From an uncultured Coriobacteriales bacterium (GTDB lineage: Bacteria > Actinomycetota > Coriobacteriia > Coriobacteriales > UMGS124): a DNA stretch of 64,000 bases. The position numbers were made by a program, and so were the translations under genes. The stretch spans positions 6,253 to 70,252 of the forward strand of contig CABQHM010000008.1 in the NCBI GenBank assembly GCA_902464015.1. The letters are read 5' to 3'. Shown piece by piece: positions 10,885-22,895 of the stretch (positions are counted from its first letter, which is position 1; every line of letters begins with the position of its first letter). The notes under the pieces are model-generated. The model was not told the origin of the DNA. It saw nothing but the letters and a program-made list of their open reading frames with translations, and searched no databases.

Positions 10885-10885
10885 G

Positions 10886-12151
10886 ATGGGGTGCACAGAC
10901 AAGGGCAAGCGCACCGATCCGATCATGACGAACAGCGCTGCGCTGCGCGTGCTGTATGACCTGGCCGGTGGTCGCATGAAGACATGGGGGGCGCTCGGCC
11001 GCGAGCTTGGGGCCATGCTGGGGGAGGAGGCGGCCGCGGGGCAGACGAGTGCCGTGGCGAGCAGCCTGCCGCCCGTCAACGTCGACGACATCTACAAGCG
11101 CAACCGACCCTGGCCGAGCGGCTTCGGCCCCAAGGAATACTGCCGGGCGTTTCGCAAGTACGCCGACGAGGGCCATGCATCCCATTACGGGGCGCTGCTC
11201 AAGGTGCAGCAGTCCCTTGAGGCCAGCAATGCCTACACACCGCAGGTCAAGGCCCTTATGGAGAACATCCGTCCCGATGCCGACGACCGCGAGGTAGCCG
11301 AGGGCCTCGAGCGCGTGATGGAGGCGATCGTCGAGACGGCGCGTCCGTACAACAAGGTGGGCTCGCCTGCCGGCCCGGTGCCGCGTGAGGACGAGCGGAG
11401 CGGGGAGGCTAGCGAGACTTGCTCGGCGGAGCGCCAGATTGCTTGCGACCTCGCGGCTGCAACCACGCGTGGAGTCGATTGCGGGCTTAGCATGGACGGG
11501 CCCGCAATGGTTGCAGCGGGGCGCACAACCGGCACGGTGGCGCCTGTTGCCCGCGCGATGGGGCATGAGCCTGGCGCTGCCCGCAATGCCGCGTTGCCTG
11601 CACAAACGTGCCCTTCTGCTGCCGGGGCCGGCTGTGATTCTCATGTGAGTATGGCCACTGCGTCATGCGAGGAGATTGGCCTTCCGCGTATCGTGCAGCT
11701 GCTTGAGTCCTGCGCCTTTGGCAAGACCGGCGTCAAGATTCTGATGTGCGTTGTTCCCGCGCGACTACTAGGCGCGCCTGCCTTGCATGCCGACCTGACC
11801 CAAGCCTGCGAGCAGGGTCTTTCTCCTCAAGCGCAGGCGGCGCTTGCCCAGGAGCTCTGCTGTGACTCGGGCCTTGCGTGCCGGTCGATGAGACGCAGCT
11901 GCGAGGCACTTGTGGCCGGTGGCGCAATAGACGCCGACAGGGTCTTTTCCTGTGCAACCTCGCTGTTCGCCGCTTCGTCTGGCCGCCCGGCAGGCGCCGA
12001 GCTTTCCCGCGCGCGGTCGTTCTACACGCGCTATGCCGACGGTGACGCGGCCCGGGCCCTGCTCTGCCTGATCTTGACGGGACTTGTTGGCATCCCAGGG
12101 TTCAATCGCATTATGATGTGCCCCGACGTTGGCCTTCTGTTGGCCCATTAA
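10886..12151 (+). CDS. Hypothetical protein coupled to the UvrA-like gene
   Basis: ATG 10886 lies 2 nt after the uvrA-like stop. The N-terminal third looks like a folded domain (YKRNRPWPSGFGPKEYCRAFRKYADEGH). The middle is a low-complexity Ala/Gly region and the C-terminal part is Cys-rich. I recognise no family. Confidence 0.5.
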   Translation: MGCTDKGKRTDPIMTNSAALRVLYDLAGGRMKTWGALGRELGAMLGEEAAAGQTSAVASSLPPVNVDDIYKRNRPWPSGFGPKEYCRAFRKYADEGHASHYGALLKVQQSLEASNAYTPQVKALMENIRPDADDREVAEGLERVMEAIVETARPYNKVGSPAGPVPREDERSGEASETCSAERQIACDLAAATTRGVDCGLSMDGPAMVAAGRTTGTVAPVARAMGHEPGAARNAALPAQTCPSAAGAGCDSHVSMATASCEEIGLPRIVQLLESCAFGKTGVKILMCVVPARLLGAPALHADLTQACEQGLSPQAQAALAQELCCDSGLACRSMRRSCEALVAGGAIDADRVFSCATSLFAASSGRPAGAELSRARSFYTRYADGDAARALLCLILTGLVGIPGFNRIMMCPDVGLLLAH

Positions 12152-12173
12152 CTTTGCGAGAGGAATTGCATCC

Positions 12174-13220
12174 ATGGACGATTTCGCCGAACTGCTCAAA
12201 TCCATGTCGGCTGCCCATGTCGACTCGAATACTGTTTGCGACGATGAGTGCGCTGCCGACCTGCCCAGGTTCATGTCGGTCAAGGAGGCCGAGTCGTGCG
12301 TCGACGGGCCCGAGGGACGAATGGGCGGAGGGGAGTACTTCCGCAAGGCTGCCCGCAGCGTGCTCGACCCGGGCAACGACGTCTTCGGCACTGCGACTGA
12401 GTTCTTCAACTACATGAACTCCTACCTGTGCGCCGGCGACTATTTCACCGCGCTCAAGCTGTCGCGCCGTGCCTTGGAGCTCTATCCCTACAACGTCGAC
12501 CTCATCTCGGCTGCCCTTCAGGCCGCAAACGGCTGCGCACAGTTCGACACATGTGCTGAGCTGCTCGAACGTGCTCGCCGTATCCCTCAGGCCATTTGGA
12601 ACTGGCGCCTTTTCATCTTCACCATCGAGTACTACCAGGCGTACCTGTACTCGTGCGATCCTGCTCTCATTGAGGGCGTGCTTAACGACGCTCTTGCCGT
12701 GGCGCGTGACTATCAGCGCTGCCTGCCGCGCGATGAGCGTGGTTACGACAAGGAGGCCGAGCTGTTGCTCTACGCCAACCGCGTGGAAGAGGCGCAGGCA
12801 GTGCTTGAGCGTGCAATTTTCGGCAAGGTGACGTTGGCCGACGGCACGGCGGCGAGTCTCGTTGCCCCGCAGTGTTGCGTCACGATGCTCGACGACGTGC
12901 TGGGCGACAGCACGGATTACGAACTCATCGCTCGTGTGGCGCAGCGCGGCGTGCGCAACACTGCACAGGCTCAGCCCAGCGCCAACATCGGCTATTTCAT
13001 GTACCGCGAGGCCTTGGCGCTTGACGCGCTCGTGTGCGACGCGGCCGACGAGCGCGACGGTTTCCGCAACGGGGAGCGCGTGCGCAACGCCCTCGTCGCC
13101 TATCGGTGTGCCTACGGAATACTTGAGGGGCGTTCGGCGTTCCGCACGACCATTGAGCGCCGCTACTCGGTGCTGTGCCACAAGGGCGGCGTGACCGACA
13201 TGCCGCTGACAGAAGAGTAG
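12174..13220 (+). CDS. Hypothetical helical-repeat (TPR-like) protein
   Basis: Track ORF 12129..13220. ATG 12174 follows GAGAGGAA. Repeated helix pairs (YLCAGDYFTALKLSRRALELYPYNVDLISAAL...). The fully overlapping minus ORF 12111..13181 has antisense-type composition. Confidence 0.55.
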   Translation: MDDFAELLKSMSAAHVDSNTVCDDECAADLPRFMSVKEAESCVDGPEGRMGGGEYFRKAARSVLDPGNDVFGTATEFFNYMNSYLCAGDYFTALKLSRRALELYPYNVDLISAALQAANGCAQFDTCAELLERARRIPQAIWNWRLFIFTIEYYQAYLYSCDPALIEGVLNDALAVARDYQRCLPRDERGYDKEAELLLYANRVEEAQAVLERAIFGKVTLADGTAASLVAPQCCVTMLDDVLGDSTDYELIARVAQRGVRNTAQAQPSANIGYFMYREALALDALVCDAADERDGFRNGERVRNALVAYRCAYGILEGRSAFRTTIERRYSVLCHKGGVTDMPLTEE

Positions 13221-13272
13221 GGTCAGTGCCGCCTAGTGGGGCTCATTCCATCTACCAGCGATTTTTATGGCA

Positions 13273-13318
13273 AGGACCTCCAACTCACAATTCGGTGAGG
13301 CGGAGGTCCTGCTTTCTT
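13273..13318 (+). terminator. Rho-independent terminator
   Basis: AGGACCTCCAACTCACAATTCGGTGAGGCGGAGGTCCT followed by GCTTTCTT. Confidence 0.7.
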
Positions 13319-13451
13319 GCGGTGTGTGCTCATGGACGTTCCCGCGCTGATGGAGGCCTCAGGCCCATGCCATGTGTCGGCGACCCACCCTCACGGGTGG
13401 TTTTGAGCTGGCGAGAGATGCAGGCCCATACCATGTGCCTGCATCTCTCGT

Positions 13452-14024
13452 TCACGGGCGGTCGTTGAGGTGGAGGTGGCGCGAGAAGGTCTTCTCGTAG
13501 TCGGCACGCAGTGCCATGGCCTGTGCCGCAAGCTCCTCGGCCGCCTTGCTCACGGCACAGGTGGCGGTTGCCGACGCGGTCGCATCGAGACGGGCGGCGC
13601 GCAGGTAGGTGGCCGAGACGATGTCGAGGCACTGCTGCTCGACCAGGGCCAGCGTCTGCGCGTGCTCGCTTGCCGAGAGGGCCTTGTCCACCGATGAGCC
13701 CACCTTTGCGCGAATCTGCTCGCACAGATACAGGGCGTCCCTGCTCGTGCGGGCGTCGGCAAGCTTGAGCGCATAGGTGCCGAGCGCCTCGTCGGTGCAG
13801 GCACGGGCGTCGCTGAACATCTGCGCAGCCTCGTGGAGCGCCTCGGCGACGCGACCTTTGCGCTGTGATTCGATGCCTGCCAGGTATTGGCTCGTGGCCA
13901 CGCCGTCGCGAACGGAGATGTTGCCCTCCTTGCGGCGGTCGAAGAAGCCCGCAATACGTGCCGCCAGCTTGCCGCGCGGCTTAACCTTCTGACGGTCCTT
14001 GATGGCTCTCGTTGCGCTAGTCAT
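13452..14024 (-). CDS. Hypothetical all-helical protein; last gene of the 7-gene operon
   Basis: Track ORF 13452..14201. ATG 14024 (MTSATRAIKDRQKVKPRG) overlaps the upstream stop by 8 nt (GGATGACTAG) and is preceded by GGAGG. Confidence 0.55.
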   Translation of the reverse strand: MTSATRAIKDRQKVKPRGKLAARIAGFFDRRKEGNISVRDGVATSQYLAGIESQRKGRVAEALHEAAQMFSDARACTDEALGTYALKLADARTSRDALYLCEQIRAKVGSSVDKALSASEHAQTLALVEQQCLDIVSATYLRAARLDATASATATCAVSKAAEELAAQAMALRADYEKTFSRHLHLNDRP

Positions 14025-14334
14025 CCAAATCGACCTCCAATTCCTTCTCGCGCAGGCGCTTGAGGCGGGCCAGGCACTGCTCGCGCGACTCCTCAAGCTG
14101 GCGGATGCTTGCCTCGCACTCCACGGCCGCTTCCTCGTCGCCATAGATCTCCTTGGCCAATGCCTTGCGCAGGACCTCCTTGTCCATGCGGGCGGCGGCA
14201 TCCAGGCGCGCCTTGTAGGCGCTGGCTTCGTTGTCGGTAAGGCGTCCGTTGTGGTTCTTGGCGTGGCCGCGCGCCTCCTCGAGCACCTTGGTGACGCCGT
14301 CAGTGAACGTGCACACGGTGTAGCGCTTTTTCAT
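14017..14334 (-). CDS. Small coiled-coil protein (105 aa)
   Basis: GAGGAGG lies 6 nt before ATG 14334. The sequence is heptad-like and charged (RQLEESREQCLARLKRLREKELEVDLDD). Confidence 0.6.
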   Translation of the reverse strand: MKKRYTVCTFTDGVTKVLEEARGHAKNHNGRLTDNEASAYKARLDAAARMDKEVLRKALAKEIYGDEEAAVECEASIRQLEESREQCLARLKRLREKELEVDLDD

Positions 14335-14358
14335 AGTTGACCTCCTCGTGTGGGTGCC

Positions 14359-15642
14359 TTACTGGCTGACGATTGCGACGACCCGGCGGTTCTGCTGCGC
14401 TGCATCCTTGTCCTGCGTGCCGTCGGCCAGGATGTCGGGCACATGTTTGACCAGGTCGTTTGACTGGTCTCCTAGGCCGATGACGGTGATGCGCTCGGCG
14501 CCGACGCCAGCGTCGGTGAGCATTTTTGCCACGGCCTGGGCGCGCTCGAGCCCCAACGGCACGCCGTGGTCCTCACGCCAGGGGCACCCGGCGGTGCTTC
14601 CCACGAGCGTGACTGTTGAGGTGGGATAGTTGGCCATCGTGGAAGCGAGCTCGGCCACAGCTTGGCGAGCGGCGTCGGGGTCTGCCAGCTCGGCCGTGTC
14701 AGGCACGAAGGGAACGGTCGTGTCGTCGAAATTGACGACGGCGACGGGCTCTGCCACGGGTTCCGGCTCCGGCTCGGGATCAGGTTCGGGTTCGGGGGTC
14801 TGCGGAATCTCGACGTCGACCGTGACTTGGGGCAGCTCCACTGTCGACACGGGGTACGCGCCTTCGGTTTCCTTGCCGGAGAGGGGCGCCGTCACGTACT
14901 GCACCTCGCCCACACCACAGGCGAGCAGAATCTGGCTCCAAAGGTCCTTGAGGTCGTTTGCCTGGGCGGTGTTGGGCGCGACCTGGTCGCCGGCTGTGAC
15001 GCCTGCGCCGTAGATGACGACCTTCGAGACGCATGACATGTCGGGGAGCAGCGGCTTGAGCTGTTCGACCACGCGGGCATGAAGCTCCTCGCTCGTGATG
15101 TCGCTGCCCGCAGGGGCGCTTACCCACTCGGGATGTTCAGCGAGGTTCACCACGCCTGCGGTAGACAGAAGGCTTGAGAAGAGGTGCACGATGTGCGAGC
15201 CAGGTGCCTGGGCAAGCGATGCGGCGGCGGCGCTCAGCCCGCCCAAGACGTCGGTCTCGGCGCACTGTGCTTGAGCACCTGCGGCCTCATTGACGAACGC
15301 CTCGGCGATGGCCTGGGCTTGCGTGGCGCGCACCTGGGCTGCCGTTGAGGAGGCTGCGGCAGACTGCACGCCGCCCTCGAGCACGGTGCGCGGGTGGCCG
15401 TCGGCGATGAGGACGTCAACCCAGCCTCCGGTTGAGGCTGTCTCGGTGAGCACGTCACCCAGGAGCTCGTAGGGGTATACCTCCTGGTTAGACACGTTGC
15501 TGGCCACAATGGCGACCGAGGATGGCGCTGTGTCCTCACCAGAACATCCGCTGGCAAACAGGGCAAGAGCGGCGCACAGGGCGCACAGGGCGACCTTGAT
15601 GGGTCCTGCGAGTAAGCGGTGAAAATCAAGATTCTTCATCAT
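14359..15642 (-). CDS. Lipoprotein with a vWA-like (MIDAS-less) region, a PE-repeat linker and a C-terminal OmpA-like peptidoglycan-binding domain
   Basis: AAAGGAG precedes ATGATG at 15642. Lipobox LALFASGCSG. Linker PEPEPDPEPEPEP. The C-terminus (GLERAQAVAKML...QQNRRVVAIV) is typical of OmpA/MotB-like domains. The vWA-like call is inferred from the strand/helix pattern (VAIVASNVSN, TDVLGGLSAA, IVHLFSSLLSTAG). Confidence 0.8.
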   Translation of the reverse strand: MMKNLDFHRLLAGPIKVALCALCAALALFASGCSGEDTAPSSVAIVASNVSNQEVYPYELLGDVLTETASTGGWVDVLIADGHPRTVLEGGVQSAAASSTAAQVRATQAQAIAEAFVNEAAGAQAQCAETDVLGGLSAAAASLAQAPGSHIVHLFSSLLSTAGVVNLAEHPEWVSAPAGSDITSEELHARVVEQLKPLLPDMSCVSKVVIYGAGVTAGDQVAPNTAQANDLKDLWSQILLACGVGEVQYVTAPLSGKETEGAYPVSTVELPQVTVDVEIPQTPEPEPDPEPEPEPVAEPVAVVNFDDTTVPFVPDTAELADPDAARQAVAELASTMANYPTSTVTLVGSTAGCPWREDHGVPLGLERAQAVAKMLTDAGVGAERITVIGLGDQSNDLVKHVPDILADGTQDKDAAQQNRRVVAIVSQ

Positions 15643-15666
15643 GACGGGCTCCTTTCTTGGGGTCGT

Positions 15667-16365
15667 TTACCAGCGGTTGGTGAGTGCGTCGATCTCGGCC
15701 TTCGCCTTGAGGAGCGCGGCGTCGATGATGGCCTCGCCGCTCTTGAGCCTCTCGCCGGCCTGGGTCGAGGCGAGCTTGGCGCGTGCTATCTGCAGGTCGT
15801 ACTCGTAGGCCTGCTTCGCCTCCTTCTCGATGGCTGCGGAGCGGCGCATCTCACGGGACAGGATGTAGGAGAGAGCGATGGTGGACACCATGCATACGAG
15901 CGTGAGCAGGGCAAACAGCGCGGCCGTCTCCATCTGGCCGGTTGCTGAGCCTGCCATTGCCTCGGCGGCGACGCCTGTGCCTGCCGTATTGCCGCTGGCC
16001 GAGGCCGCGAGCTGGCCGTAGAGGCGGATGGCCGCCACGGTCAAGGCCAGTCCCGCGGGCAGGACGAGCATCGCCTTGCTGTTCTTGCGGCCCGCAATCA
16101 TCGGGATGACGAGGATGAGTGCCGAGGCGATGGCGGCCACCACGAGGGCCTCAATGCCGGCGGTCATGCCCTGGGCGCGTTCGGCGGCGGTCGTGAGGCC
16201 GGCGCCTGTGAGGTTGCCGCCGAGCAGCAGCTCACAGGCGGTGTAGCTCAGCACGAAGTCGGCGGCCTCGGTGGCCACGAGGATGACGAGGCCGATCACC
16301 ATCCAGGGGTGGTAGGCGTCGCGGTGGATGGTCTTCATGACCTTGCGGGGGATGTCGTTGCTCAT
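15667..16365 (-). CDS. Polytopic membrane protein with a C-terminal coiled coil
   Basis: Track ORF 15667..16416 (GTG). ATG 16365 (MSNDIPRKVMK) is an alternative start. Four to five hydrophobic segments, then IEKEAKQAYEYDLQIARAKLASTQAGERLK. Confidence 0.6.
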   Translation of the reverse strand: MSNDIPRKVMKTIHRDAYHPWMVIGLVILVATEAADFVLSYTACELLLGGNLTGAGLTTAAERAQGMTAGIEALVVAAIASALILVIPMIAGRKNSKAMLVLPAGLALTVAAIRLYGQLAASASGNTAGTGVAAEAMAGSATGQMETAALFALLTLVCMVSTIALSYILSREMRRSAAIEKEAKQAYEYDLQIARAKLASTQAGERLKSGEAIIDAALLKAKAEIDALTNRW

Positions 16366-16482
16366 ATGCGCTCTCTTTTCGTATCGTGCGCCCCCAGGCG
16401 CGTTTGACAAGGCCACTATGGACCCGTGCGCGGCGCCCGACGAGACGCCGAAATGGTGCGTGTTCGGTGCGCCTTGCCTGGC

Positions 16483-17667
16483 TTATCCTGTGAAGCCCAC
16501 GGTGCGCTGCCCGTCGGCGCCGCCCAGGTCGGGCTGCTTGTAGGCCGCGCGCAGGTCGCAGGCCTCGATGAGGGGGCGGTCGCAGCGTACGGCGCACTCC
16601 ATGGTGGCGCGGTCGAAGAGGCGGCGGGCGGTGCGGGCGTTGGCGAAGTCGCGCTTGTTGCGCAGGCCCTCCAGGCAGCGCACGAGCTCGACATGGGCGT
16701 CGGGGTCCACGGCGAACCCGTGGTGGCGCGCGAAGAGGTCGAAGACCTGTGCCAGCTCGGCGGTCGTGTAGTCGTCGAACTCAACGCGCAGGCCAAAGCG
16801 GTCGCGAAGGCCGGAGTTGCGCTGGAAGAGCTGCTCGATGTCCTCGGGGTAGCCGGCGATGATGCACACGAGCTTGTCGCGCTCGGCCTCGAGCATCTCC
16901 ACGAGCGTGTCGATGGCCTCCTGGCCGTAGTCGCCGCCCGACAGCAGCGAGTACGCCTCGTCGATGAAGAGGATCCCACCCACGGCGCGCTCCACCACGG
17001 CGCGTGTCCTGCCGGGCGTCTGGCCCAGGTAGGGGGCCACAAGGTCGGCGGCCGTCGCCTTCACGAAGGTGCCCGTGCCGTCGGTGACGCCGAGCGCGTC
17101 GAGGTGGGCGAGAAGGCGGTGGGCGAGCTCGGTCTTGCCGGTGCCAGGGGCGCCCGTGAACGCCATGTGCAGGCATTCCACCGAGTCACGGCCGTGCTTT
17201 GCCACCAGGGCGCTCACCTTGCGGAGCATGTCGCGCTGCGTGTTGAGGCCGATGAGCCCCTTGAATGCGTCGTCGGGGTTGGCGGAGGGCTTGGGGCGCG
17301 GCTTGAGGTCGGAGGGCTTGGTGACGCCCGTGTCGCGGTTGTCGTTCGAGAGCTTCACCATGGCCTTGAGGGCAAAGGTTCCTGCGGTCTTAGGGTCGAG
17401 CCTCTTGTATGAGTCGAGCTTGTAGGGGCACATCGCCTCGATGAGGCCGCGCGGGTCAGCCGAGTCGTCGAGGTACTCGCGCAGGCGTCCCGAGCGGGCG
17501 AAGAAGGGCACGTGCATCTTTCCTTCTTTGCCCGCCACGGCCGAGAGGCACTCGATGCGCACGTCGTTTGCGGCAATCAGGTCGACGGATTTGGCGACGC
17601 GTTCCCAGTCGGGCTCGGTGCCCACGTCGAACATGCCGGCGAAATACTGTGCAGCACGCGTCGCCAT
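16483..17667 (-). CDS. AAA+ ATPase of the CbbX/SpoVK/EccA-like family
   Basis: Walker A FTGAPGTGKT; Walker B GGILFIDEAYSL. The family-typical tail DYGQEAIDTLVEMLEAERDKLVCIIAGYPEDIEQLFQRNSGLRDRF is present. The unique ~150-aa N-terminal domain has no TPR. AAGGAGGA precedes the ATG. Confidence 0.85.
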   Translation of the reverse strand: MATRAAQYFAGMFDVGTEPDWERVAKSVDLIAANDVRIECLSAVAGKEGKMHVPFFARSGRLREYLDDSADPRGLIEAMCPYKLDSYKRLDPKTAGTFALKAMVKLSNDNRDTGVTKPSDLKPRPKPSANPDDAFKGLIGLNTQRDMLRKVSALVAKHGRDSVECLHMAFTGAPGTGKTELAHRLLAHLDALGVTDGTGTFVKATAADLVAPYLGQTPGRTRAVVERAVGGILFIDEAYSLLSGGDYGQEAIDTLVEMLEAERDKLVCIIAGYPEDIEQLFQRNSGLRDRFGLRVEFDDYTTAELAQVFDLFARHHGFAVDPDAHVELVRCLEGLRNKRDFANARTARRLFDRATMECAVRCDRPLIEACDLRAAYKQPDLGGADGQRTVGFTG

Positions 17668-17672
17668 GGTCG

Positions 17673-18095
17673 CTAGTCCTCCTTCTTGGAATACACGTTT
17701 GCGACGTAGTCGATGACGAGGGGATAGAAGTGCTCGTCAAACCAGGCGAGCTCGGGCATCAGGGTGCGCTCGATGGTCTGGGGGTCGTAGTCGTGGATGT
17801 CGCGGCGCAAGACGACCTCGCCGTCCTTGGGGTCGAAGGAGAGGTCGATCATCTCCTCGTCGTCGCACACGAACTGGAAGCGCTCGAATCCGCGGCGTGC
17901 CTCGCGGGGAATCTGCACGCTCGGGGTGAAGCGCAGGTAAGGGGTTTGAGAGCCCTTCTCGATGGTGACGCCGCAGCTCAGGTGCTGCAGGCGGAAGATG
18001 GCGTAGACGCTGTCGTCGTCCGCGGCACGCCAGGTCACTCCGGCGATCTCCTTGCCGACGAGGCCGGTCTCGTTCTTCTCAGCGTTGATAAGCAT
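17673..18095 (-). CDS. Hypothetical 140-aa protein
   Basis: Tail of track ORF 17673..18668. ATG 18095 follows CAGGAGGAACACC. The stop lies 5 nt before the ATPase start. Confidence 0.6.
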   Translation of the reverse strand: MLINAEKNETGLVGKEIAGVTWRAADDDSVYAIFRLQHLSCGVTIEKGSQTPYLRFTPSVQIPREARRGFERFQFVCDDEEMIDLSFDPKDGEVVLRRDIHDYDPQTIERTLMPELAWFDEHFYPLVIDYVANVYSKKED

Positions 18096-18175
18096 GGTGT
18101 TCCTCCTGTGGGGTGGGTTGTGTTTTATGTTGGTGGGCGAGGGCAGATGAAACCGTAACGGTTTCGTAGGGTGCG

Positions 18176-18754
18176 CTAGTCGTTGTTCATGAGACGGCGC
18201 AGCGTGGCGAGGAGGTCGTCGCTCGACTCGCTGTTCGAGTCGTCGTCCTCCTTGTCGGCGCGCAGGATGTCCCAGGGGTCGCGGCCCGCCGCAAGCTGGC
18301 AGGCGACGCTGGCGTAGGCGTGCACGGTGGAGAGGCCCTTGCCCAGGCAGTCGGCCAGGTCGCCGCCGTGGACGAGGTCGACGGGCTCCTCGGGGCGGAA
18401 GTGCAGCCAACCCTCGTCGTCCACCATGAGGCCGGCCACGATGAAGCTTGCGTTCAGGCGGCGGAAGAGCTTCCTCGTTACCTTCATGAGCTCGGGTGTG
18501 ACGCGCTGGTTCATGACGATGTCGACGGCCGCCATGCCCGTGGCGGGGTCGACGACCGCAACCGCTTCGGCAAATCCGCAACCGTGGCGGTTGCCGCAGG
18601 CGCGGAAGGTGCCTTCCGGGCCCTCGCAGTAGGGGGTGCGCACAGCGTCGAGCTGGCGGCGCGCGCACTCGAGGGGGGTCTCGGCGCAGGTCTCTCCGTC
18701 ACGGCCGTTCTCCACGTCGGAGAAGATGCGTCCAAGTTCGTCGAAGTAGCTCAT
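18176..18754 (-). CDS. Hypothetical 192-aa protein with an acidic tail (possibly YbjN/chaperone-like)
   Basis: GAAAGGA precedes ATG 18754. The central pattern (FRRLNASFIVAGLMVDDEGWLHFRPEEPVDL) resembles YbjN-type folds; this is inference only. The C-terminus is D/E/S-rich. Confidence 0.6.
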   Translation of the reverse strand: MSYFDELGRIFSDVENGRDGETCAETPLECARRQLDAVRTPYCEGPEGTFRACGNRHGCGFAEAVAVVDPATGMAAVDIVMNQRVTPELMKVTRKLFRRLNASFIVAGLMVDDEGWLHFRPEEPVDLVHGGDLADCLGKGLSTVHAYASVACQLAAGRDPWDILRADKEDDDSNSESSDDLLATLRRLMNND

Positions 18755-18848
18755 GCGATGTCCTTTCTCGTTGGCGCGGTTTTCTTTGTCCCGCGCATTT
18801 GACGAGGTCAGTATCGCCCCCAGCCGCCTTGCCGACGAGTTGCCAAAA

Positions 18849-18906
18849 AGGTGCGACTTTGGTGCATCCAGGGTGCAAAGGGGTGCACGAGAGACGCGAG
18901 GGGTGC
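18849..18906 (+). promoter_or_regulatory. Five phased direct repeats GGTGC(A/G) in a divergent promoter region
   Basis: Copies start at 18849, 18860, 18871, 18881 and 18901 (spacing 11, 11, 10, 20 nt). They lie between the operon start (18754) and the 5'-nucleotidase start (19074). Confidence 0.5.
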
Positions 18907-19073
18907 ACGGGATGAGGGTTTCACGTTTCGATTGCGGACAAACCGTTTACGTTTCTTGCACTTTCTTTTGGTGCCTGTGGCAGCCAAGACTTGTTACCAT
19001 GCTGCCAACACGCGATGCGCTTGGCTGGTTTTCTGGCTTTGCTGGGCGCGCAAACTGAAGGAGCTGAGCCGCC

Positions 19074-21128
19074 GTGATTGATACCCGCTTCCTCGATGTT
19101 ATCCCTGCAATTGGTGCCACTCTGTCTCGCCCTACGCGCCGCGCCGTGGTCGCGGGTGCGTGCGGGGCTGCGGCGCTGGCGGCTGCGTCTGGCGTGGCGC
19201 CGCTGGGGCAGGGCCAAGTGCTCGCTGATGAGAGCGCCCGCGCCGACCAGGTCGTCATCTACCACACGAACGACGTCCACGGCCACCTGCAGGGGGACGG
19301 TTCTTCAGCCGTTGGCATCGACTACGTGGCGGCCCTGCACGTCTCCACCCCCAACAGCCTGCTGGTTGATGCAGGCGATGCGACGCAGGGCATGCCGGTC
19401 GTGTCGCTCTCCAAGGGCGCCTCTGCCATCGAGCTCATGAACGCCGCAGGCTACGACGCTATGTGCCTGGGCAACCATGAGTTTGACTTCGGCCAGGAAG
19501 TGCTGCTCACAAATGCCGAGGCAGCTGAGTTCCCGATGCTGAGCGCCAATGTCGTGCGCAAGGACTCGGGCGAGGCCTTGCTGGCGGGCGTGGGCGTATG
19601 CGGTAACGGCGTCACTGCGGTGCTGGAGTGTGCGGGCCGCCACATCGGAGTCTTCGGCATCACCACCGCCTCCACCAGCCACAGCACATCGCCGGCAAAC
19701 GTGGAGGGCCTTCAGTTTGAAGACGAGGTCGATACGGCCCGGCGTTGCATCGCCGAGCTTGCCGCGCAGGGGGTCGACGCCATCGTGGCCCTATGCCACC
19801 TGGGCGATGGCCCCGTGTCGTGCCGTGCCGTCGACCTGGCCGCCGAGCTTGAGCCCGAAGAAGCCGCCAAGCTCAGCGTCATCGTGGACGGCCACAGCCA
19901 CACGGTTGAGAACATCGAGGTCAACGGCGTTCTTGTTGTGCAGACGGGCTGCAATTTGGCAAACATTGGCAGGCTGACGCTGGCATTTGACGCTGACGGC
20001 TCGGTTTCTGCCATCGAGGAGCTGCTCGACCCCGAGGCCGCGGCGCAGGCCGTTGAACCCGCCTCTGAGGTGACCGAGGTTCTTGCCGAGGTCAGCGCCG
20101 AGCAAGACGCGCTCATGGCGCAAGTGCTCTTCGATACGCCTACCACGCTTTGGGCCGGATGGCTCTCCGAGAGTGCCATCTCCGCTCCCACGCGTGCGGT
20201 GGAGACGAACCTGGGCGACGTTGTGTGCGATGCGTTTCGCGCGGCGGCAGGTGCCTACCTCGAAGGTGAGGGGCTGGAGAGCATGCCGGTTGTCGCTGTG
20301 GAGAACGGCGGCGGCATCCGTGAGGCGTTTGCCCGCGGTATGGTCTCGATGGGAAATCTCGTGGCGGCGTTTCCCTTCTCCAACACCGTCGTGCTGAAAA
20401 AGGTCACGCCTCGCGTGCTGCACGATTTGTTTGAGGGGTCGTTTTCCGGCATGGCCGGGCAGGATCCCCAGACGGGCATGCTGCTCCAGGAGGCTGTCTC
20501 AGGCGGTTTTCTGCAGATGGCAGGCTGCGACGTCGTGTGTGACCCCAACGCCGAAGCGGGCGCCCGCGTGCAGGCGATCACGCTCGAAGGCGCGGCCGAG
20601 CCGCTCGACCTCGCCGACGACGAGACGCCCCTGCTTCTCGTTTCCAACAGCTACGTGATGGCGGGCGGCGACTCCTATGCCGCCGTGGCTGGCATCGACC
20701 CCATGGCCGATCTGGGCGGTGAGCTCGAGATACTCCAAAACTATCTGGTAGAGCTTACCGGTGATGACAACGACGCCGAGTCTCCCTCGCTTCCCCTGTA
20801 TGCCGGCACGTTGGAGCGCTTGCAGCTGCGCGGCGGCTACGAGCCTGCCGGCTGGGTGGCGGTCGTCCGCCTGGTCGACGGAAGTGGCGTTGCGCTCCCT
20901 GGGTGTGCCGCGACGCTCGAGGTGGACGCCAGCGAGCGCGTTGATGTGCAGGCTGATGAGAACGGCCTGGTCTACCTGGATGTTTCCGATGGCCCGCACG
21001 CCGTTTGCCTGGTTGCGGCCGATGGAAGCGACGTTGTGGGGCCCGAGCATTACGTGAACAACTACCTGGGCTACGGCCTTGTTGAGGATGATTTACGCTC
21101 GTATCCCGAGATTGCGGTTGAGGGATAG
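19074..21128 (+). CDS. Tat-exported bifunctional metallophosphatase/5'-nucleotidase (UshA-like)
   Basis: GTG start after AAGGAG. Tat motif SRPTRRAVVAGACGAAALA. Metallophosphatase motifs YHTNDVHGH and GNHEFDFG. 5'-nucleotidase C-terminal domain plus an extra C-terminal beta-rich module. Confidence 0.85.
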   Translation: MIDTRFLDVIPAIGATLSRPTRRAVVAGACGAAALAAASGVAPLGQGQVLADESARADQVVIYHTNDVHGHLQGDGSSAVGIDYVAALHVSTPNSLLVDAGDATQGMPVVSLSKGASAIELMNAAGYDAMCLGNHEFDFGQEVLLTNAEAAEFPMLSANVVRKDSGEALLAGVGVCGNGVTAVLECAGRHIGVFGITTASTSHSTSPANVEGLQFEDEVDTARRCIAELAAQGVDAIVALCHLGDGPVSCRAVDLAAELEPEEAAKLSVIVDGHSHTVENIEVNGVLVVQTGCNLANIGRLTLAFDADGSVSAIEELLDPEAAAQAVEPASEVTEVLAEVSAEQDALMAQVLFDTPTTLWAGWLSESAISAPTRAVETNLGDVVCDAFRAAAGAYLEGEGLESMPVVAVENGGGIREAFARGMVSMGNLVAAFPFSNTVVLKKVTPRVLHDLFEGSFSGMAGQDPQTGMLLQEAVSGGFLQMAGCDVVCDPNAEAGARVQAITLEGAAEPLDLADDETPLLLVSNSYVMAGGDSYAAVAGIDPMADLGGELEILQNYLVELTGDDNDAESPSLPLYAGTLERLQLRGGYEPAGWVAVVRLVDGSGVALPGCAATLEVDASERVDVQADENGLVYLDVSDGPHAVCLVAADGSDVVGPEHYVNNYLGYGLVEDDLRSYPEIAVEG

Positions 21129-21142
21129 GGGCTGGAAGGGAC

Positions 21143-22231
21143 ATGGGTTTGTCGAAGAAGAGCATCGGGTTTGCCCTGGGGGCCCTTGGCGCCGCGGGGG
21201 TTTCGGCGCTGCTGGCATATGGCGTGCACAAGGCTGACCCGCGCTTTTACCGTACCAAGTTTGGGCCGGCCGTTGTGTGCACCACGACCGACGCCGACGG
21301 GCGAGCGGTGCGCCTCTTGCTTGTGGGGCGCAGCGTGCAGTCTGCGACGTACGTGGACGAAGAATACCGAGCCGAGCCGGTCTTCGACTACTACCTGGCC
21401 TTCGACCTCATGTTTGATGCCAAGCCCGACATCGAGCGCGTCCTCATGGTGGGCGGCGGCGGGTACGCCTATCCCAAGCACATCATCGCCACGCGGCCCG
21501 AGGTGCACATGGACGTGGTCGAGATCGACCCGGCCATCACGCGCATTGCGCTCAAGGACTTCTACCTTGCGGAGTATCTCTCCGACTTCCCCTTTGGTGG
21601 GACCTACGACCTGGGCAGGGTGTGTGCCGACGGGTGCGACTACCTGGCCGATTTGTCCCATGTGCTGCGAGAAGAGCTTGGGGGAGAGGGCCGCGGAATC
21701 GGTCGTGCCGAGCGCGTGATTGGGGATGCCGCGTGCAGGACTGCTGACAACCGTGGGCCCAGTGGCATCGCGAATGAGGTTGATGGGGCCGAGTGCGAGG
21801 TCGGCGATGCTGCGTGCCAGACCGACCATGCCGGGCACGTGACCGGCGATGTCGCGGACCAAACTGACCACGCCATGCCTGACACTGAGTTTGCCCGCCA
21901 GGCGCGCCGTCGCTACGGTGCGAGCTTCGGACGGCGCTATGACGCCATGGTTTTCGACGTATTTGCTGGTAAAAAGCCCGTTGCGTCCCTTGCGAGTCCA
22001 GCGACCATCCGCAACGCCCATGCCTGCCTGAACCCCGGCGGCGTCCTCATCGCCAACGTTGTTTCAACGCTCGAGGGCCCAAAATCGACGTTTCTGCACC
22101 AGTACGTCGAGGCCCTCGAGGGCGAGTTCGCCTACGTCCACGTTATCCCCCTCTCACCCGACAGCACCGACGTTCCCGATAACGTCATTCTCCTCGCCAC
22201 CGACGCCACCTGGGAGTTCGCGGGGATGTAG
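21143..22231 (+). CDS. Spermidine-synthase-like SAM-dependent transferase with an N-terminal TM anchor
   Basis: N-terminal helix GFALGALGAAGVSALLAY. Rossmann-like MVGGGGYAYP..DVVEIDP. It contains a repeat-bearing insertion (see findings). Confidence 0.7.
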   Translation: MGLSKKSIGFALGALGAAGVSALLAYGVHKADPRFYRTKFGPAVVCTTTDADGRAVRLLLVGRSVQSATYVDEEYRAEPVFDYYLAFDLMFDAKPDIERVLMVGGGGYAYPKHIIATRPEVHMDVVEIDPAITRIALKDFYLAEYLSDFPFGGTYDLGRVCADGCDYLADLSHVLREELGGEGRGIGRAERVIGDAACRTADNRGPSGIANEVDGAECEVGDAACQTDHAGHVTGDVADQTDHAMPDTEFARQARRRYGASFGRRYDAMVFDVFAGKKPVASLASPATIRNAHACLNPGGVLIANVVSTLEGPKSTFLHQYVEALEGEFAYVHVIPLSPDSTDVPDNVILLATDATWEFAGM

Positions 22232-22300: not shown

Positions 22301-22642
22301 TTAAAACTCCAGGTAACTTGTGATGACCTGCACGTAGGCCCGATTAACGCGCCCAATCGGTGCCTCACGTAGGAGCTTGTCGTACGATAGCTCGAATACT
22401 TGGTCTATACGCACGAACGACGGCTTTCTTAAACCGCATTCTTGCCAGTCGAGAATGGGCAGGCATTTACCCGAGCCGTCTGCCCTGAGGTCTTTCGAAG
22501 TCACTTTTGCCGCTATGACCAGGCAGTGCCCGTCTTGAACGTCAAGAACAATAACTGGCCTCACCTTGCCGATGCCGGGATGATCGGCAAATTCAACATA
22601 GGCGAGCCAGACATCCCCGATCGAAGGCTTATGCCAGGTCAT
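22301..22642 (-). CDS. PemK/MazF-family type II toxin
   Basis: Track ORF 22301..22708. ATG 22642 (MTWHKPSIGDVWLAYVEFADHPGIGKVRPVIVL) gives the usual ~113-aa MazF-like size and N-terminal pattern. It overlaps the antitoxin stop. Confidence 0.8.
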   Translation of the reverse strand: MTWHKPSIGDVWLAYVEFADHPGIGKVRPVIVLDVQDGHCLVIAAKVTSKDLRADGSGKCLPILDWQECGLRKPSFVRIDQVFELSYDKLLREAPIGRVNRAYVQVITSYLEF

Positions 22643-22895
22643 CGTAGAGTCCGTCGTCTTCGGCGCAGTCCCAGTCTGCTGGTAGGGTAGTCGTACGGGT
22701 TCTGACATCCATGGATATGACGTCCTGCTTTGACCAGTCTATATTTGGAATGTGGTCCTCAGATATTGGTGCAATAACAACCCATGGTTTCGAGTTTCGA
22801 AAGACTGTGACTGGTTGTCTTGTGGAAGAAACGGTTGCGGCAATCTTAGAGAAGTTGGCGCGGGTCTCTGCAACTGTTGCTGTGAGTTCGGGCAT
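22629..22895 (-). CDS. Phd/YefM-family antitoxin
   Basis: ATVAETRANFSKIAATVSSTRQPVTVFRNSKPWVVIAP is the classic YefM N-terminal domain. The C-terminus is acidic. Confidence 0.8.
   Translation of the reverse strand: MPELTATVAETRANFSKIAATVSSTRQPVTVFRNSKPWVVIAPISEDHIPNIDWSKQDVISMDVRTRTTTLPADWDCAEDDGLYDDLA

What the first reader, a model, noticed from the sequence alone, without database searches (positions are those of the whole stretch)
13452..18754. Seven-gene operon around a CbbX/SpoVK-type AAA+ ATPase and a vWA-like/OmpA-like lipoprotein that fits no described system
Seven co-directional genes are packed with gaps of about 80, 5, 66-117, 24 and 24 nt and a final 8-nt overlap. Most have strong SDs, so they form one transcription unit. 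Gene order is as follows. (1) A 192-aa protein with an acidic tail, possibly a YbjN/chaperone-like fold. (2) A 140-aa unknown. (3) An AAA+ ATPase with the unmistakable CbbX/SpoVK/EccA core but a novel ~150-aa N-domain instead of TPRs. (4) A 4-5-TM protein ending in a coiled coil. (5) A lipoprotein whose first domain has a vWA-like strand/helix pattern lacking MIDAS residues, followed by a PEPEPDPEPEPEP linker and an OmpA/MotB-type peptidoglycan anchor. (6) A 105-aa coiled-coil protein. (7) A 190-aa helical protein. CbbX-family ATPases are known as Rubisco activases, sporulation factors and T7SS EccA. Here there is no Rubisco, no EccC/FtsK-type ATPase and no WXG100-like gene. AAA+/vWA pairs normally use MoxR-type, not CbbX-type, ATPases. 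The combination of a cytoplasmic remodelling ATPase, a membrane coiled-coil protein and a wall-anchored lipoprotein suggests a trans-envelope ATP-driven machine, for secretion, wall remodelling or a conflict/defence function. This is my best candidate for the undescribed system.
Basis: partly seen in the sequence, partly recalled or inferred. Interest (0 to 1): 0.75.

Follow-up and report, generated by a model that had tools for sequence, protein, structure and literature searches.

The report
Chaperone ATPase operon with envelope add-on
A real seven-gene operon in a gut Coriobacteriia genome pairs a CbbX/EccA-class remodelling ATPase with a secretion-chaperone-like (YbjN-family) protein, and in this lineage has gained four cell-envelope genes; the gene set matches no annotated system, but it is built from known kinds of parts.

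Summary
Seven co-directional minus-strand genes lie at 13452-18754 with the stated spacing, and a strong hairpin follows the last one.
- g3 is a SpoVK/CbbX/EccA-clade AAA+ ATPase with an unmatched N-domain of about 135 aa.
- g1 is a YbjN / type III-chaperone fold.
- g4 is a 4-TM protein.
- g5 is a lipoprotein with a MIDAS-less vWA-like domain, a PE-rich linker and an OmpA-like domain.

The unit is drawn wrongly, though. In 11 related loci the conserved core is g1 + g2 + ATPase (10 of 11). The envelope genes g4-g7 occur only in this species and one sister lineage. There, g4 starts 2 nt after g2.

No partner gene was found in 80 control loci around generic CbbX/SpoVK ATPases. No Pfam, NCBIfam, PADLOC or PDB match names the system.

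Best reading: a dedicated AAA+ chaperone module that uses TY-chaperone-type adaptors and is coupled here to a wall-anchored membrane complex. A true trans-envelope machine is possible but unsupported. I rate it a new variant of a known kind, of moderate interest.

The parts
18176..18754 (-). g1: 192-aa YbjN-family (type III-chaperone / 'TY-chaperone' fold) protein with an acidic C-terminal tail
   Evidence: The AF2 model has pLDDT 90.7 and an alpha-beta4-alpha-beta2-alpha topology. Foldseek against the PDB puts ExsC, SchA, SicP, SpcU and CesT on top, together with the YbjN proteins DR_1245, AmyR and 2plg (prob up to 0.99). Family members P0192 (24.3 bits) and P0179 (22.1 bits) pass the Pfam YbjN cut-off of 22. 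The family has only 42 representative clusters among 1.84 billion proteins. The g1 HMM hits 10 of 11 related loci and 0 of 80 controls.
17673..18095 (-). g2: 140-aa small protein of unknown fold, a constant partner of g1 and the ATPase
   Evidence: No Pfam, PDB or PADLOC match, even at E<=10, for any of 8 family members. No profile similarity to g1. Present in 10 of 11 related loci and 0 of 80 controls. It ends 5 nt before the ATPase gene here and 2 nt before g4 in L090/L098.
16483..17667 (-). [quoted passage not shown]
   Evidence: Pfam AAA and AAA_lid_6. NCBIfam SpoVK 179, CbbX 167 and EccA 141 bits, all below their cut-offs of 423-467. PDB CbbX 3zuh E 1.7e-44 and EccA1 9lur E 3.4e-37, both over residues ~136-363 only. 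The clade signatures G272-Y273, N284...R288 and R345 are invariant in 18 homologues. The N-domain has no PDB match.
16492..16500 (-). Conserved C-terminal V-G-F motif of the ATPase (residues 390-392)
   Evidence: G391 and F392 are invariant in 18 homologues down to 39% identity, and lie 0-3 residues from the C-terminus. Function unknown. A role in docking to the TPR protein is only an idea.
15667..16365 (-). g4: 232-aa membrane protein with 4 TM segments; both termini predicted cytoplasmic; C-terminal tail of ~60 aa, helical by sequence inspection only
   Evidence: Hydropathy gives TM segments at 20-44, 66-94, 97-117 and 145-171, and K/R-rich segments predict an N-in/C-in topology. The acidic residues E33, D36 and E45 and the motif ELLLGGNxTGAGL are conserved across lineages. 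Found only in L090 and L098 outside this species.
14359..15642 (-). g5: 427-aa lipoprotein with signal peptide and lipobox (1-33), vWA-like domain without MIDAS (~38-270; window 14833-15531), PE-rich disordered linker (273-298; 14749-14826) and OmpA-like domain (299-427; 14362-14748)
   Evidence: The G-C-S lipobox is nearly invariant. AF2 pLDDT is 76.5, with a beta-alpha-beta order like vWA. BFVD Foldseek finds several VWA proteins over ~225-240 columns (E 1e-4 to 1e-2, prob 0.96-1.0). The N-domain has no Pfam or PDB sequence hit. OmpA PF00691 scores 31.8 bits against a cut-off of 27.2, and the top 50 PDB fold hits are all OmpA-like.
14017..14334 (-). g6: 105-aa charged cytoplasmic protein, probably helical, with a possible C-terminal coiled coil
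   Evidence: No signal peptide or TM segment. Heptad periodicity at residues 74-101 was matched by 6 of 200 shuffles. Conserved at 39-41% identity in L090/L098. No family or PDB match.
13452..14024 (-). g7: 190-aa cytoplasmic protein of unknown fold; its start overlaps the end of g6 by 8 nt
   Evidence: ORF and overlap. Conserved at 31-32% identity in L090/L098 with 53 invariant columns. No family or PDB match. No heptad signal.
13413..13450 (-). Terminator-like hairpin directly after g7, between the two convergent gene sets
   Evidence: dG -30.3 kcal/mol and z -4.9; none of 200 shuffles folded as well. There is no U-tract.
   Evidence: Weak Pfam TPR_14/TPR_19 hits. The profile hits consensus-TPR structures at residues 65-105. 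Highly conserved (63% mean column identity). Adjacent to the core in L083, L087, L088, L090 and L098, and absent from 80 controls.
   Evidence: Alignment A5. No Pfam, PDB or PADLOC match. Adjacent to the core in L083, L087, L088, L090, L098 and L100, and absent from 80 controls. Its start lies 1 nt after the stop of the UvrA-like gene.

Best explanation
This is a dedicated AAA+ chaperone (remodelling) module of the SpoVK/CbbX/EccA clade.

Its fixed core has three parts. The ATPase is a probable hexamer with intact Walker A/B motifs, a pore-loop aromatic residue and both arginine fingers. g1 is a YbjN-family protein with the fold of type III secretion class I chaperones. g2 is a second small protein of unknown fold. 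The most likely mechanism is that g1, perhaps together with g2, holds a specific client polypeptide. The family-specific N-domain of the ATPase docks this adaptor-client complex. ATP-driven pulling then releases, unfolds or assembles the client. This mirrors how CbbX acts on Rubisco, SpoVK on MurG and EccA on ESX substrates.

A TPR protein (dnA) and a partly disordered protein (dnB) are frequent co-factors or clients.

In this species and one sister lineage the module has gained four envelope genes. g4 is a 4-TM protein with a cytoplasmic tail. g5 is a lipoprotein that presents a MIDAS-less vWA-like binding domain outside the membrane and carries an OmpA-like wall-binding domain. g6 and g7 are small cytoplasmic proteins. 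In this lineage, then, the chaperone module probably assembles, remodels or regulates a membrane complex tethered to peptidoglycan.

Shown: the gene structure, the domain identities and the pattern of co-occurrence. Inferred: every physical interaction, the identity of the client, and the direction of action.
For: ATPase clade membership and catalytic competence:
- Searches place it with CbbX, SpoVK and EccA.
- The invariant G272-Y273, N284/R288 and R345 match the three clade signatures defined in PMC11513918.

g1 as a TY-chaperone / YbjN protein.

Linkage of the core:
- The g1 and g2 HMMs each hit 10 of 11 loci carrying this ATPase family, and none of 80 control loci (1.41 Mb) around generic CbbX/SpoVK ATPases.
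- The triad survives gene-order permutation: g1-g2-ATPase in the window, L087, L088, L091, L099 and L100; ATPase-g1-g2 in L086, L090 and L098.

dnA and dnB co-occurrence.

Linkage of g4-g7 to the core:
- They were never found without it (3 of 3 contexts).
- In L090/L098, g4 starts 2 nt after g2.
- Adjacency is kept even though the ATPase has moved and dnA/dnB have been inverted.

Topology: the g4 tail, g6 and g7 are predicted cytoplasmic, and g5 carries a lipoprotein signal peptide and is taken to be extracytoplasmic.
Against: - No interaction was tested.
- The folds of g2, g4, g6, g7, dnB and the ATPase N-domain remain unknown.
- YbjN-family proteins have only loose links to chaperone activity (review PMC13466201), so 'adaptor' is an analogy.
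- The evidence for g4-g7 rests on two independent lineages at most, because L090 and L098 are near-identical and share flanking synteny with the window. Shared ancestry could therefore explain part of the adjacency.
- The 117-nt g3-g4 spacer could hold an internal promoter.
- One ATPase relative (L084) has no partner genes at all.
Confidence: 0.45

Rival explanations
1. Trans-envelope secretion or translocation apparatus. g1/g2 act as secretion chaperones. The ATPase strips and unfolds substrates, possibly g6, g7 or dnB. g4 forms or gates a membrane conduit, and g5 anchors the apparatus to the wall.
For: - The g1 fold is that of type III secretion class I chaperones.
- The ATPase clade includes the T7SS chaperone EccA.
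- The g4 tail, g6 and g7 are predicted cytoplasmic, and g5 has a lipoprotein signal peptide.
- g2 and g4 are translationally coupled in L090/L098.
- In L086 the triad sits next to TraG/VirD4-type coupling-protein genes.
Against: - No channel-forming or translocase family was detected. g4 has only 4 TM segments, short loops and no family match.
- Nine of the 11 related loci lack all envelope genes, so the chaperone/ATPase core works without them.
- No EccB-E, EccC/EssC or MycP gene lies nearby.
- g6 and g7 carry no recognisable secretion signal.
Confidence: 0.15
2. A conflict system (anti-phage or inter-bacterial), or cargo of a mobile element. The ATPase/chaperone core would act as sensor or regulator, with lineage-variable effector modules; g4-g7 would be one such module.
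For: - The distribution is patchy and the families are very small: 42 clusters for g1, 26 proteins for g5.
- The genes flanking the core vary: a vWA-PP2C-kinase-like set plus a transglutaminase-like gene in L083; DO-GTPase2 in L089; an integrase and T4SS coupling proteins in L086; Transglut_core in L099.
- BREX-like genes lie about 5 kb away in L098.
- A PemK toxin pair lies 3.5 kb away in the window.
- Strain-level changes in g1 are concentrated in its N-terminal half.
Against: - No PADLOC hit for any of the nine proteins beyond generic P-loop matches.
- No nuclease, protease, pore-forming or NADase effector domain was found.
- tblastn found no homologue of g1, g2 or dnA in 72,556 plasmids, and none of g1 or g2 in 50,697 phage records.
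- The window locus is flanked by housekeeping-type genes.
Confidence: 0.15
3. Two functionally unrelated units that happen to be adjacent: the cytoplasmic chaperone triad (with dnA/dnB), and a separate envelope operon g4-g7 with its own promoter in the 117-nt spacer.
For: - g4-g7 are missing from 9 of 11 related loci.
- The g3-g4 spacer is the longest gap in the operon.
- The window, L090 and L098 share flanking synteny, for example the spermidine-synthase-like gene. Adjacency could therefore be inherited rather than selected.
Against: - In L090/L098, g4 starts 2 nt after g2.
- g4-g7 stay next to the triad and between it and dnB/dnA despite two rearrangements.
- There is no terminator-like structure between g3 and g4.
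- g5 homologues were found in no other context, although only three contexts could be read.
Confidence: 0.15

Closest known systems
EccA with EspG-type chaperones (cytosolic arm of mycobacterial ESX / type VII secretion)
   Same: The AAA+ ATPase belongs to the same SpoVK-EccA-like clade. A TPR element and small dedicated chaperone-type proteins are encoded alongside it. The phylum is also the same (Actinomycetota).
   Different: - The score is 141 bits against the EccA cut-off of 467, and only the AAA part aligns.
- The TPR protein is a separate gene rather than an N-terminal fusion, and its profile search recovered no EccA entry among 35 hits up to E 10.
- The partner is a YbjN-family protein, not EspG.
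- No EccB-E, EccC or MycP genes lie nearby, and no WXG100 gene is known here.
CbbX (red-type Rubisco activase) and SpoVK (MurG chaperone in Bacillus sporulation)
   Same: These are the best sequence matches for the AAA core: PDB 3zuh E 1.7e-44, and SpoVK model 179 bits. The same clade signatures are present. The functional logic is the same too: a specialised remodeller for one or a few clients. SpoVK and EccA1 have links to cell-envelope synthesis (PMC11513918).
   Different: It scores far below both equivalog cut-offs. It has a different, unmatched N-domain of ~135 aa. No Rubisco gene was seen in the locus gene table or among the ORFs scanned. The host is a Coriobacteriia relative, not a sporulating Bacillota. 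It has constant small partner proteins, which are not described for CbbX or SpoVK.
Type III secretion class I chaperones and the YbjN family (Pfam clan TypeIII_Chap, the 'TY-chaperones')
   Same: g1 has this fold, and its family overlaps Pfam YbjN. The idea of a chaperone handing its client to an ATPase is borrowed from the injectisome.
   Different: No injectisome is present, and the host lineage is taken to be monoderm (background knowledge, not tested here). The partner ATPase is a classical AAA+ protein, not an F1-like SctN. The window's g1 itself scores below every Pfam threshold. YbjN proteins have no established mechanism (PMC13466201).
MoxR-vWA pairs and Bat-type (Bacteroides aerotolerance) operons
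   Same: They combine an AAA+ ATPase, a vWA-type protein and a TPR protein in one neighbourhood. In L083 a canonical VWA protein sits upstream of the core.
   Different: The ATPase is not MoxR-type, as it has no AAA_3 match. The vWA-like domain lacks MIDAS and lies on a lipoprotein predicted to be extracytoplasmic, so the cytoplasmic ATPase cannot reach the folded domain directly.
OmpA-like wall-binding lipoproteins (Pal, YiaD, YfiB, MotB C-domain)
   Same: The g5 C-domain passes the Pfam OmpA threshold and matches these structures. g5 is also a lipoprotein, like Pal, YiaD and YfiB.
   Different: It scores below all NCBIfam equivalog cut-offs. It carries an extra vWA-like domain of ~230 aa. 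The Asp of the usual G-H-[TA]-D motif (recalled from family knowledge) is Ala in all 10 family members, so wall binding may differ.

Membership tests
SpoVK-EccA-like clade of classical AAA+ ATPases (as defined in PMC11513918) | [quoted passage not shown] | tested here: met
   G272-Y273 is invariant in 18 homologues. Definition read.
SpoVK-EccA-like clade of classical AAA+ ATPases (as defined in PMC11513918) | [quoted passage not shown] | tested here: met
   N284 and R288 are invariant (N-S-G-L-R).
SpoVK-EccA-like clade of classical AAA+ ATPases (as defined in PMC11513918) | Second arginine finger (sensor 2) retained | tested here: met
   A344-R345 is invariant in the A-N-A-R motif. AAA_lid_6 hit.
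CbbX (Rubisco activase, TIGR02880) | Score at or above the equivalog cut-off (459 bits), with Rubisco genes in the locus | tested here: not met
   166.8 bits. No Rubisco gene in the ±10-kb gene table.
SpoVK (TIGR02881) | Score at or above the equivalog cut-off (423 bits), in a sporulating Bacillota host with the short 3-strand N-domain | tested here: not met
   179.1 bits. The N-domain is ~135 aa and unmatched. Named homologues come from Coriobacteriia.
EccA / type VII secretion (TIGR03922) | Score at or above the cut-off (467 bits), with an N-terminal TPR domain fused to the ATPase | tested here: not met
   141.4 bits, aligned to model positions 310-503 only. No TPR hit in the ATPase.
EccA / type VII secretion (TIGR03922) | Neighbouring T7SS core genes (EccB-E, EccC/EssC FtsK-type ATPase, MycP, WXG100) | tested here: not met
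   None in the ±10-kb gene table or among the ten longest ORFs of the window. Small WXG100 genes were not specifically searched for.
YbjN family, PF10722 (Pfam clan TypeIII_Chap) - for g1 | Pfam model score at or above the gathering cut-off (22 bits) | tested here: inconclusive
   The window's g1 has no hit. Five of 41 family members hit YbjN, and two pass the cut-off: P0192 at 24.3 bits and P0179 at 22.1 bits. P0179 matches g1 at E 1.1e-9.
YbjN family, PF10722 (Pfam clan TypeIII_Chap) - for g1 | The alpha/beta chaperone fold (a beta-meander packed by helices) | tested here: met
   AF2 pLDDT 90.7. The best PDB matches are ExsC, DR_1245, AmyR, SchA, SicP and CesT, with TM-score (target-normalised) 0.43-0.63 and prob 0.47-0.99.
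von Willebrand factor A domain - for the g5 N-domain | Sequence match to the VWA models | tested here: not met
   No VWA hit at E<=10 for any of 6 family members. No PDB sequence hit.
von Willebrand factor A domain - for the g5 N-domain | vWA fold | tested here: inconclusive
von Willebrand factor A domain - for the g5 N-domain | MIDAS metal site (DxSxS ... T ... D) | tested here: not met
   After strand 1 the family has S-N-V-S-N-Q, S-P-V-A-N-Q or G-A-C-A-N-Q. After strand 4 it has S157 and T161 rather than Asp. Only T130-D131 is conserved.
OmpA-like peptidoglycan-binding domain, PF00691 - for the g5 C-domain | Pfam score at or above the cut-off, and an OmpA-like fold | tested here: met
   31.8 bits against 27.2. 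The top 50 PDB fold matches are all OmpA, Pal, MotB or YfiB, with E down to 1.8e-8.
OmpA-like peptidoglycan-binding domain, PF00691 - for the g5 C-domain | Ligand-contacting Asp and Arg (the G-H-[TA]-D motif and the R of L-S-x-x-R-A; recalled from family knowledge) | tested here: inconclusive
   The Arg (R367) and N-R-R-V are invariant. The Asp position is Ala351 in all 10 members. Binding was not tested.
MoxR-vWA / Bat operon | MoxR-type ATPase (AAA_3) paired with a MIDAS-bearing vWA protein | tested here: not met
   No AAA_3 hit, and MIDAS is absent.
Known anti-phage defence systems (PADLOC-DB 2.0) | Any system-specific protein model matched by the operon's proteins | tested here: not met
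   The ATPase gives only weak P-loop matches (IetA, mad8, TRIP13; E >= 1e-4). g1 gives one chance-level hit (DpdH, E 0.02). g2, g4-g7, dnA and dnB give nothing.

The most novel reading that the evidence does not exclude
The nine genes encode a previously unrecognised export or surface-assembly apparatus of monoderm Actinomycetota. An EccA-class AAA+ ATPase and type III-style (YbjN-fold) chaperones would feed small helical proteins (g6, g7 or dnB) to a 4-TM membrane protein. That protein would be tethered to the wall by a vWA-like/OmpA-like lipoprotein. This would be a minimal secretion system unrelated to T7SS, and it would give a first mechanistic role to a YbjN-family protein.
Probability: 0.12. 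Interest if true: 0.85.

Novelty: new variant of a known kind. Interest (0 to 1): 0.5.

Why it matters
YbjN is the most widespread branch of the type III-chaperone clan, yet it has no established mechanism (PMC13466201). The SpoVK/CbbX/EccA clade is emerging as a set of single-client remodellers whose clients are mostly unknown (PMC11513918).

A tight, permutation-resistant gene linkage between a YbjN-family protein and an ATPase of this clade gives a directly testable hypothesis for both: a chaperone-type adaptor paired with an AAA+ remodeller. In this lineage there is also a candidate envelope target.

The host species is abundant in metagenomes: several hundred near-identical sequences exist for each protein. 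Any envelope phenotype could therefore matter for gut Coriobacteriia biology.

The reach is limited. The partner families are very small and, so far, confined to Coriobacteriia.

Tried and rejected
1. Scan of genome contigs with the ATPase alignment. The patterns chosen were the Walker A and B motifs, so all 80 loci returned were generic CbbX/SpoVK ATPases. They were useless for synteny but were reused as negative controls.
2. Word-based homologue search with g2. It found only 4 near-identical proteins, so no alignment was available for structure prediction.
4. The metagenome scan with the TPR protein gave only 6 loci. The one long distant locus (L096) has no ATPase on the side that could be read.
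5. Profile or PDB sequence searches for g1, g2, g4, g6, g7, dnB, the g5 N-domain and the ATPase N-domain found nothing significant.
6. hhalign comparisons of g1 with g2, and of the ATPase N-domain with g1, g2, dnA and dnB, showed no relationship.
8. An Rfam scan of 10500-19400 found nothing. An alignment of the regions upstream of g1 from six loci showed no shared motif beyond the ribosome-binding site.
9. The consensus promoter/terminator scan was uninformative in this GC-rich DNA.
10. Rejected ideas:
   - A MotA/MotB- or Tol-Pal-type stator: no family match, and g5 is a lipoprotein without a TM helix carrying the key Asp.
   - T7SS: see the membership table.
   - Plasmid or phage cargo: no tblastn hits.

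Full report

Yes. A public metagenome contig holds the identical ATPase and was annotated independently. Its gene calls have the same seven lengths: 192, 140, 394, 232, 427, 105 and 190 aa. All seven proteins are conserved in another lineage at 32-63% identity, so none is a spurious GC-rich ORF.

A 14-bp-stem hairpin sits right after the last gene (dG -30.3 kcal/mol, z -4.9). The longest internal spacer, between g3 and g4, has no significant structure. This fits one transcript, but transcription was not measured.

**2. What are the parts?**

*g3, the ATPase.* It matches Pfam AAA and AAA_lid_6. Its best models are SpoVK (179 bits), CbbX (167) and EccA (141), all far below their family cut-offs of 423-467 bits. 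The best solved relatives are CbbX (E 1.7e-44) and EccA1 (E 3.4e-37), aligned only over residues ~136-363.

A 2024 study defined the SpoVK-EccA-like clade by three signatures: a G-Y sensor-1, an Asn four residues before the first Arg finger, and a retained sensor-2 Arg (PMC11513918). All three are invariant in 18 homologues of g3. So is the Walker A motif, with the Walker B motif essentially conserved (invariant D236-E237). A pore-loop aromatic residue is conserved as Y or F.

The first ~135 residues match nothing. The family also has a conserved V-G-F at the extreme C-terminus.

*g1.* It has no direct family hit. An exhaustive search found only 42 representative clusters among 1.84 billion proteins. 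With that alignment AlphaFold gave a confident model (pLDDT 90.7). Its best PDB matches are type III secretion class I chaperones (ExsC, SchA, SicP, SpcU, CesT) and YbjN-family proteins (DR_1245, AmyR, 2plg). Five of the 41 family members hit Pfam YbjN, and two of them score above the gathering cut-off.

*g2.* It remains unassigned, and profile comparison shows no relation to g1.

*g4.* It has four TM segments. By the positive-inside rule, both termini, including the ~60-aa C-terminal tail, are predicted cytoplasmic. Conserved acidic residues lie in TM1.

*g5.* It has a conserved lipobox. The model has pLDDT 76.5. Its C-domain is clearly OmpA-like. The N-domain has the strand/helix order of a vWA domain, and it matches several viral VWA proteins over 225-240 columns (E 1e-4 to 1e-2). 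It has no sequence-level VWA match and no MIDAS residues.

*g6 and g7.* They have no matches. A crude heptad test gives weak support for a coiled coil in g6 only.

**3. What is the unit?**

I read the neighbourhoods of ten ATPase relatives (39-63% identical, all sharing the N-domain) and of one g5 relative. I then searched these loci with the window's proteins and with profile HMMs.

| Gene(s) | Loci with a hit (of 11) | Notes |
|---|---|---|
| g1 | 10 | Absent only from L084 |
| g2 | 10 | Absent only from L084 |
| g4-g7 | 2 | L090 and L098, which are near-identical to each other |

Two gene orders occur for the core: g1-g2-ATPase and ATPase-g1-g2.

As a control, none of the eight HMMs hit anything in the 80 loci (1.41 Mb) around generic CbbX/SpoVK ATPases that an earlier, badly targeted scan had fetched.

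In L090 all nine genes are co-directional, in the order ATPase-g1-g2-g4-g5-g6-g7-dnB-dnA. In both L090 and L098, g4 starts 2 nt after g2.

So the core is the triad, dnA/dnB are frequent companions, and g4-g7 are a lineage-specific addition that has always been seen attached to the core.

**4. How does it most likely work?**

Characterised members of this AAA+ clade are specialised remodellers with one or a few clients, recruited through a variable N-domain: CbbX-Rubisco, SpoVK-MurG and EccA-ESX substrates (PMC11513918). The constant partner g1 has the peptide-binding chaperone fold of the type III/YbjN clan. A 2026 review calls the YbjN branch widespread but mechanistically obscure (PMC13466201).

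The simplest model is an adaptor/chaperone-plus-unfoldase pair. g1, with g2, presents a client to the ATPase N-domain, and ATP hydrolysis releases or assembles it. The TPR protein and the partly disordered dnB would be co-factors or clients.

In this lineage the g4 tail, g6 and g7 are predicted cytoplasmic, which gives the module a membrane address. g5 ties the membrane protein to the wall and presents a protein-binding vWA-like domain outside.

I put about 0.45 on this general picture. Every interaction in it is inferred.

**5. Rivals.**

- *A true secretion apparatus (0.15).* This is suggested by the chaperone fold and the EccA kinship. But no conduit component was found, and most relatives lack all envelope genes.
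- *A conflict or mobile-element system (0.15).* This is suggested by the tiny families and the patchy distribution. It is also suggested by the variable neighbours: a vWA-PP2C-kinase-like set and transglutaminase-like genes in L083, L086 and L099; DO-GTPase2 in L089; T4SS coupling proteins and an integrase in L086; and BREX-like genes near L098. But there is no PADLOC match, no recognisable effector domain, and no plasmid or phage homologue.
- *Two unrelated adjacent units (0.15).* This is weakened by the 2-nt g2-g4 junction and by adjacency surviving rearrangements. It cannot be excluded, because only about two independent lineages carry g4-g7.

**6. Comparison with known systems, and novelty.**

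[quoted passage not shown] It is not CbbX, SpoVK or EccA, because it fails each cut-off and each context test.

The closest analogy is the EccA + EspG cytosolic arm of ESX systems. Here, though, there is no T7SS core, the TPR protein is encoded separately, and the partner has a YbjN fold. The combination of an AAA+ ATPase, a vWA-type protein and a TPR protein recalls MoxR/Bat operons, but the ATPase type, the missing MIDAS and the topology all differ.

No paper in the searchable library describes this gene set. I classify it as a new variant of a known kind, namely a specialised clade chaperone with new adaptors and, in this lineage, an envelope module. It is not categorically new.

Interest is moderate (0.5). 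The system offers a concrete handle on YbjN-family function and on a new client class for this ATPase clade, but it is narrow in distribution and its mechanism is unproven.

Noticed in passing
window 8386-10884 (+): An 832-aa UvrA-paralogue gene ends 1 nt before the start of dnB, so UvrA-like, dnB and dnA look like one plus-strand operon here. It hits the PADLOC model mad3 (E 1e-69) and mad8, probably through generic UvrA/ABC-ATPase similarity. It is not adjacent to dnB in the other loci.
   Followed up: partly
window 16492-16500 (-); alignment A1: The ATPase family keeps a V-G-F motif 0-3 residues from the C-terminus in all 18 homologues down to 39% identity. This holds even for relatives without partner genes. 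A C-terminal peptide is a typical TPR ligand, but nothing was tested.
   Followed up: no
L083 4820-8821; L086 15970-17835 and ~20842-21152; L099 8270-9256: Transglutaminase-core genes lie beside the triad in three distant loci. L083 (Arabiibacter massiliensis) also has a canonical VWA protein, a PP2C phosphatase and a 511-aa membrane protein with only a chance-level kinase-like Pfam hit directly upstream. L086 has a Ser/Thr kinase.
   Followed up: partly
L086 7966-12264 and 19126-20822: In this relative the ATPase-g1-g2 triad sits between two pairs made of a ~133-aa gene and a TraG/VirD4-type coupling-protein gene. The element also carries an integrase and a transposase.
   Followed up: no
L098 17448-21284: BREX-like genes (BrxC/BrxD family plus a DEAD/Cas3-like helicase) lie about 5 kb from the nine-gene set in the sister lineage.
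   Followed up: no
L089 1145-1975 and 6031-7605: The most distant locus has an extra protein whose sequence looks YbjN-like by eye, and a zinc-ribbon/TM protein with a weak DO-GTPase2 hit, both upstream of the g1-like/g2-like/ATPase genes.
   Followed up: no
window 15667-16365 (-), g4 residues 33-57: Conserved acidic residues in or next to TM1 (E33, D36, E45) and an invariant loop E-L-L-L-G-G-N-x-T-G-A-G-L are shared across the two lineages. Charged residues inside a TM helix hint at ion or partner binding.
   Followed up: no
window 14362-14748 (-), g5 residue 351: In the OmpA-like domain the position that is usually Asp in the G-H-[TA]-D motif is Ala in all 10 family members. The Arg and the N-R-R-V motif are kept. 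Peptidoglycan binding may be altered.
   Followed up: partly
window 18176-18754 (-) compared with L092 11357-11944: Between strains of the same species g1 is only about 86% identical, while g4-g7 are 95-100% identical. Most of the g1 changes fall in its N-terminal ~90 residues or in the acidic C-terminal tail, which also carries a 4-aa insertion.
   Followed up: partly
window 22301-22895 (-): A PemK/MazF-type toxin gene (PF02452) lies with a small upstream antitoxin-like gene, 3.5 kb from the operon.
   Followed up: no
window 46165-49383 (+): A type I restriction enzyme R subunit (HsdR; HSDR_N, SWI2_SNF2 and T1RH-like_C domains) lies about 27 kb from the operon.
   Followed up: no
P0145, P0146 (g5 relatives, 36-39% identity): The two most distant g5 relatives have R-R in their signal peptides (a possible Tat motif), unlike the window protein. 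Their contigs (1.7-2.6 kb) are too short to show gene context.
   Followed up: no
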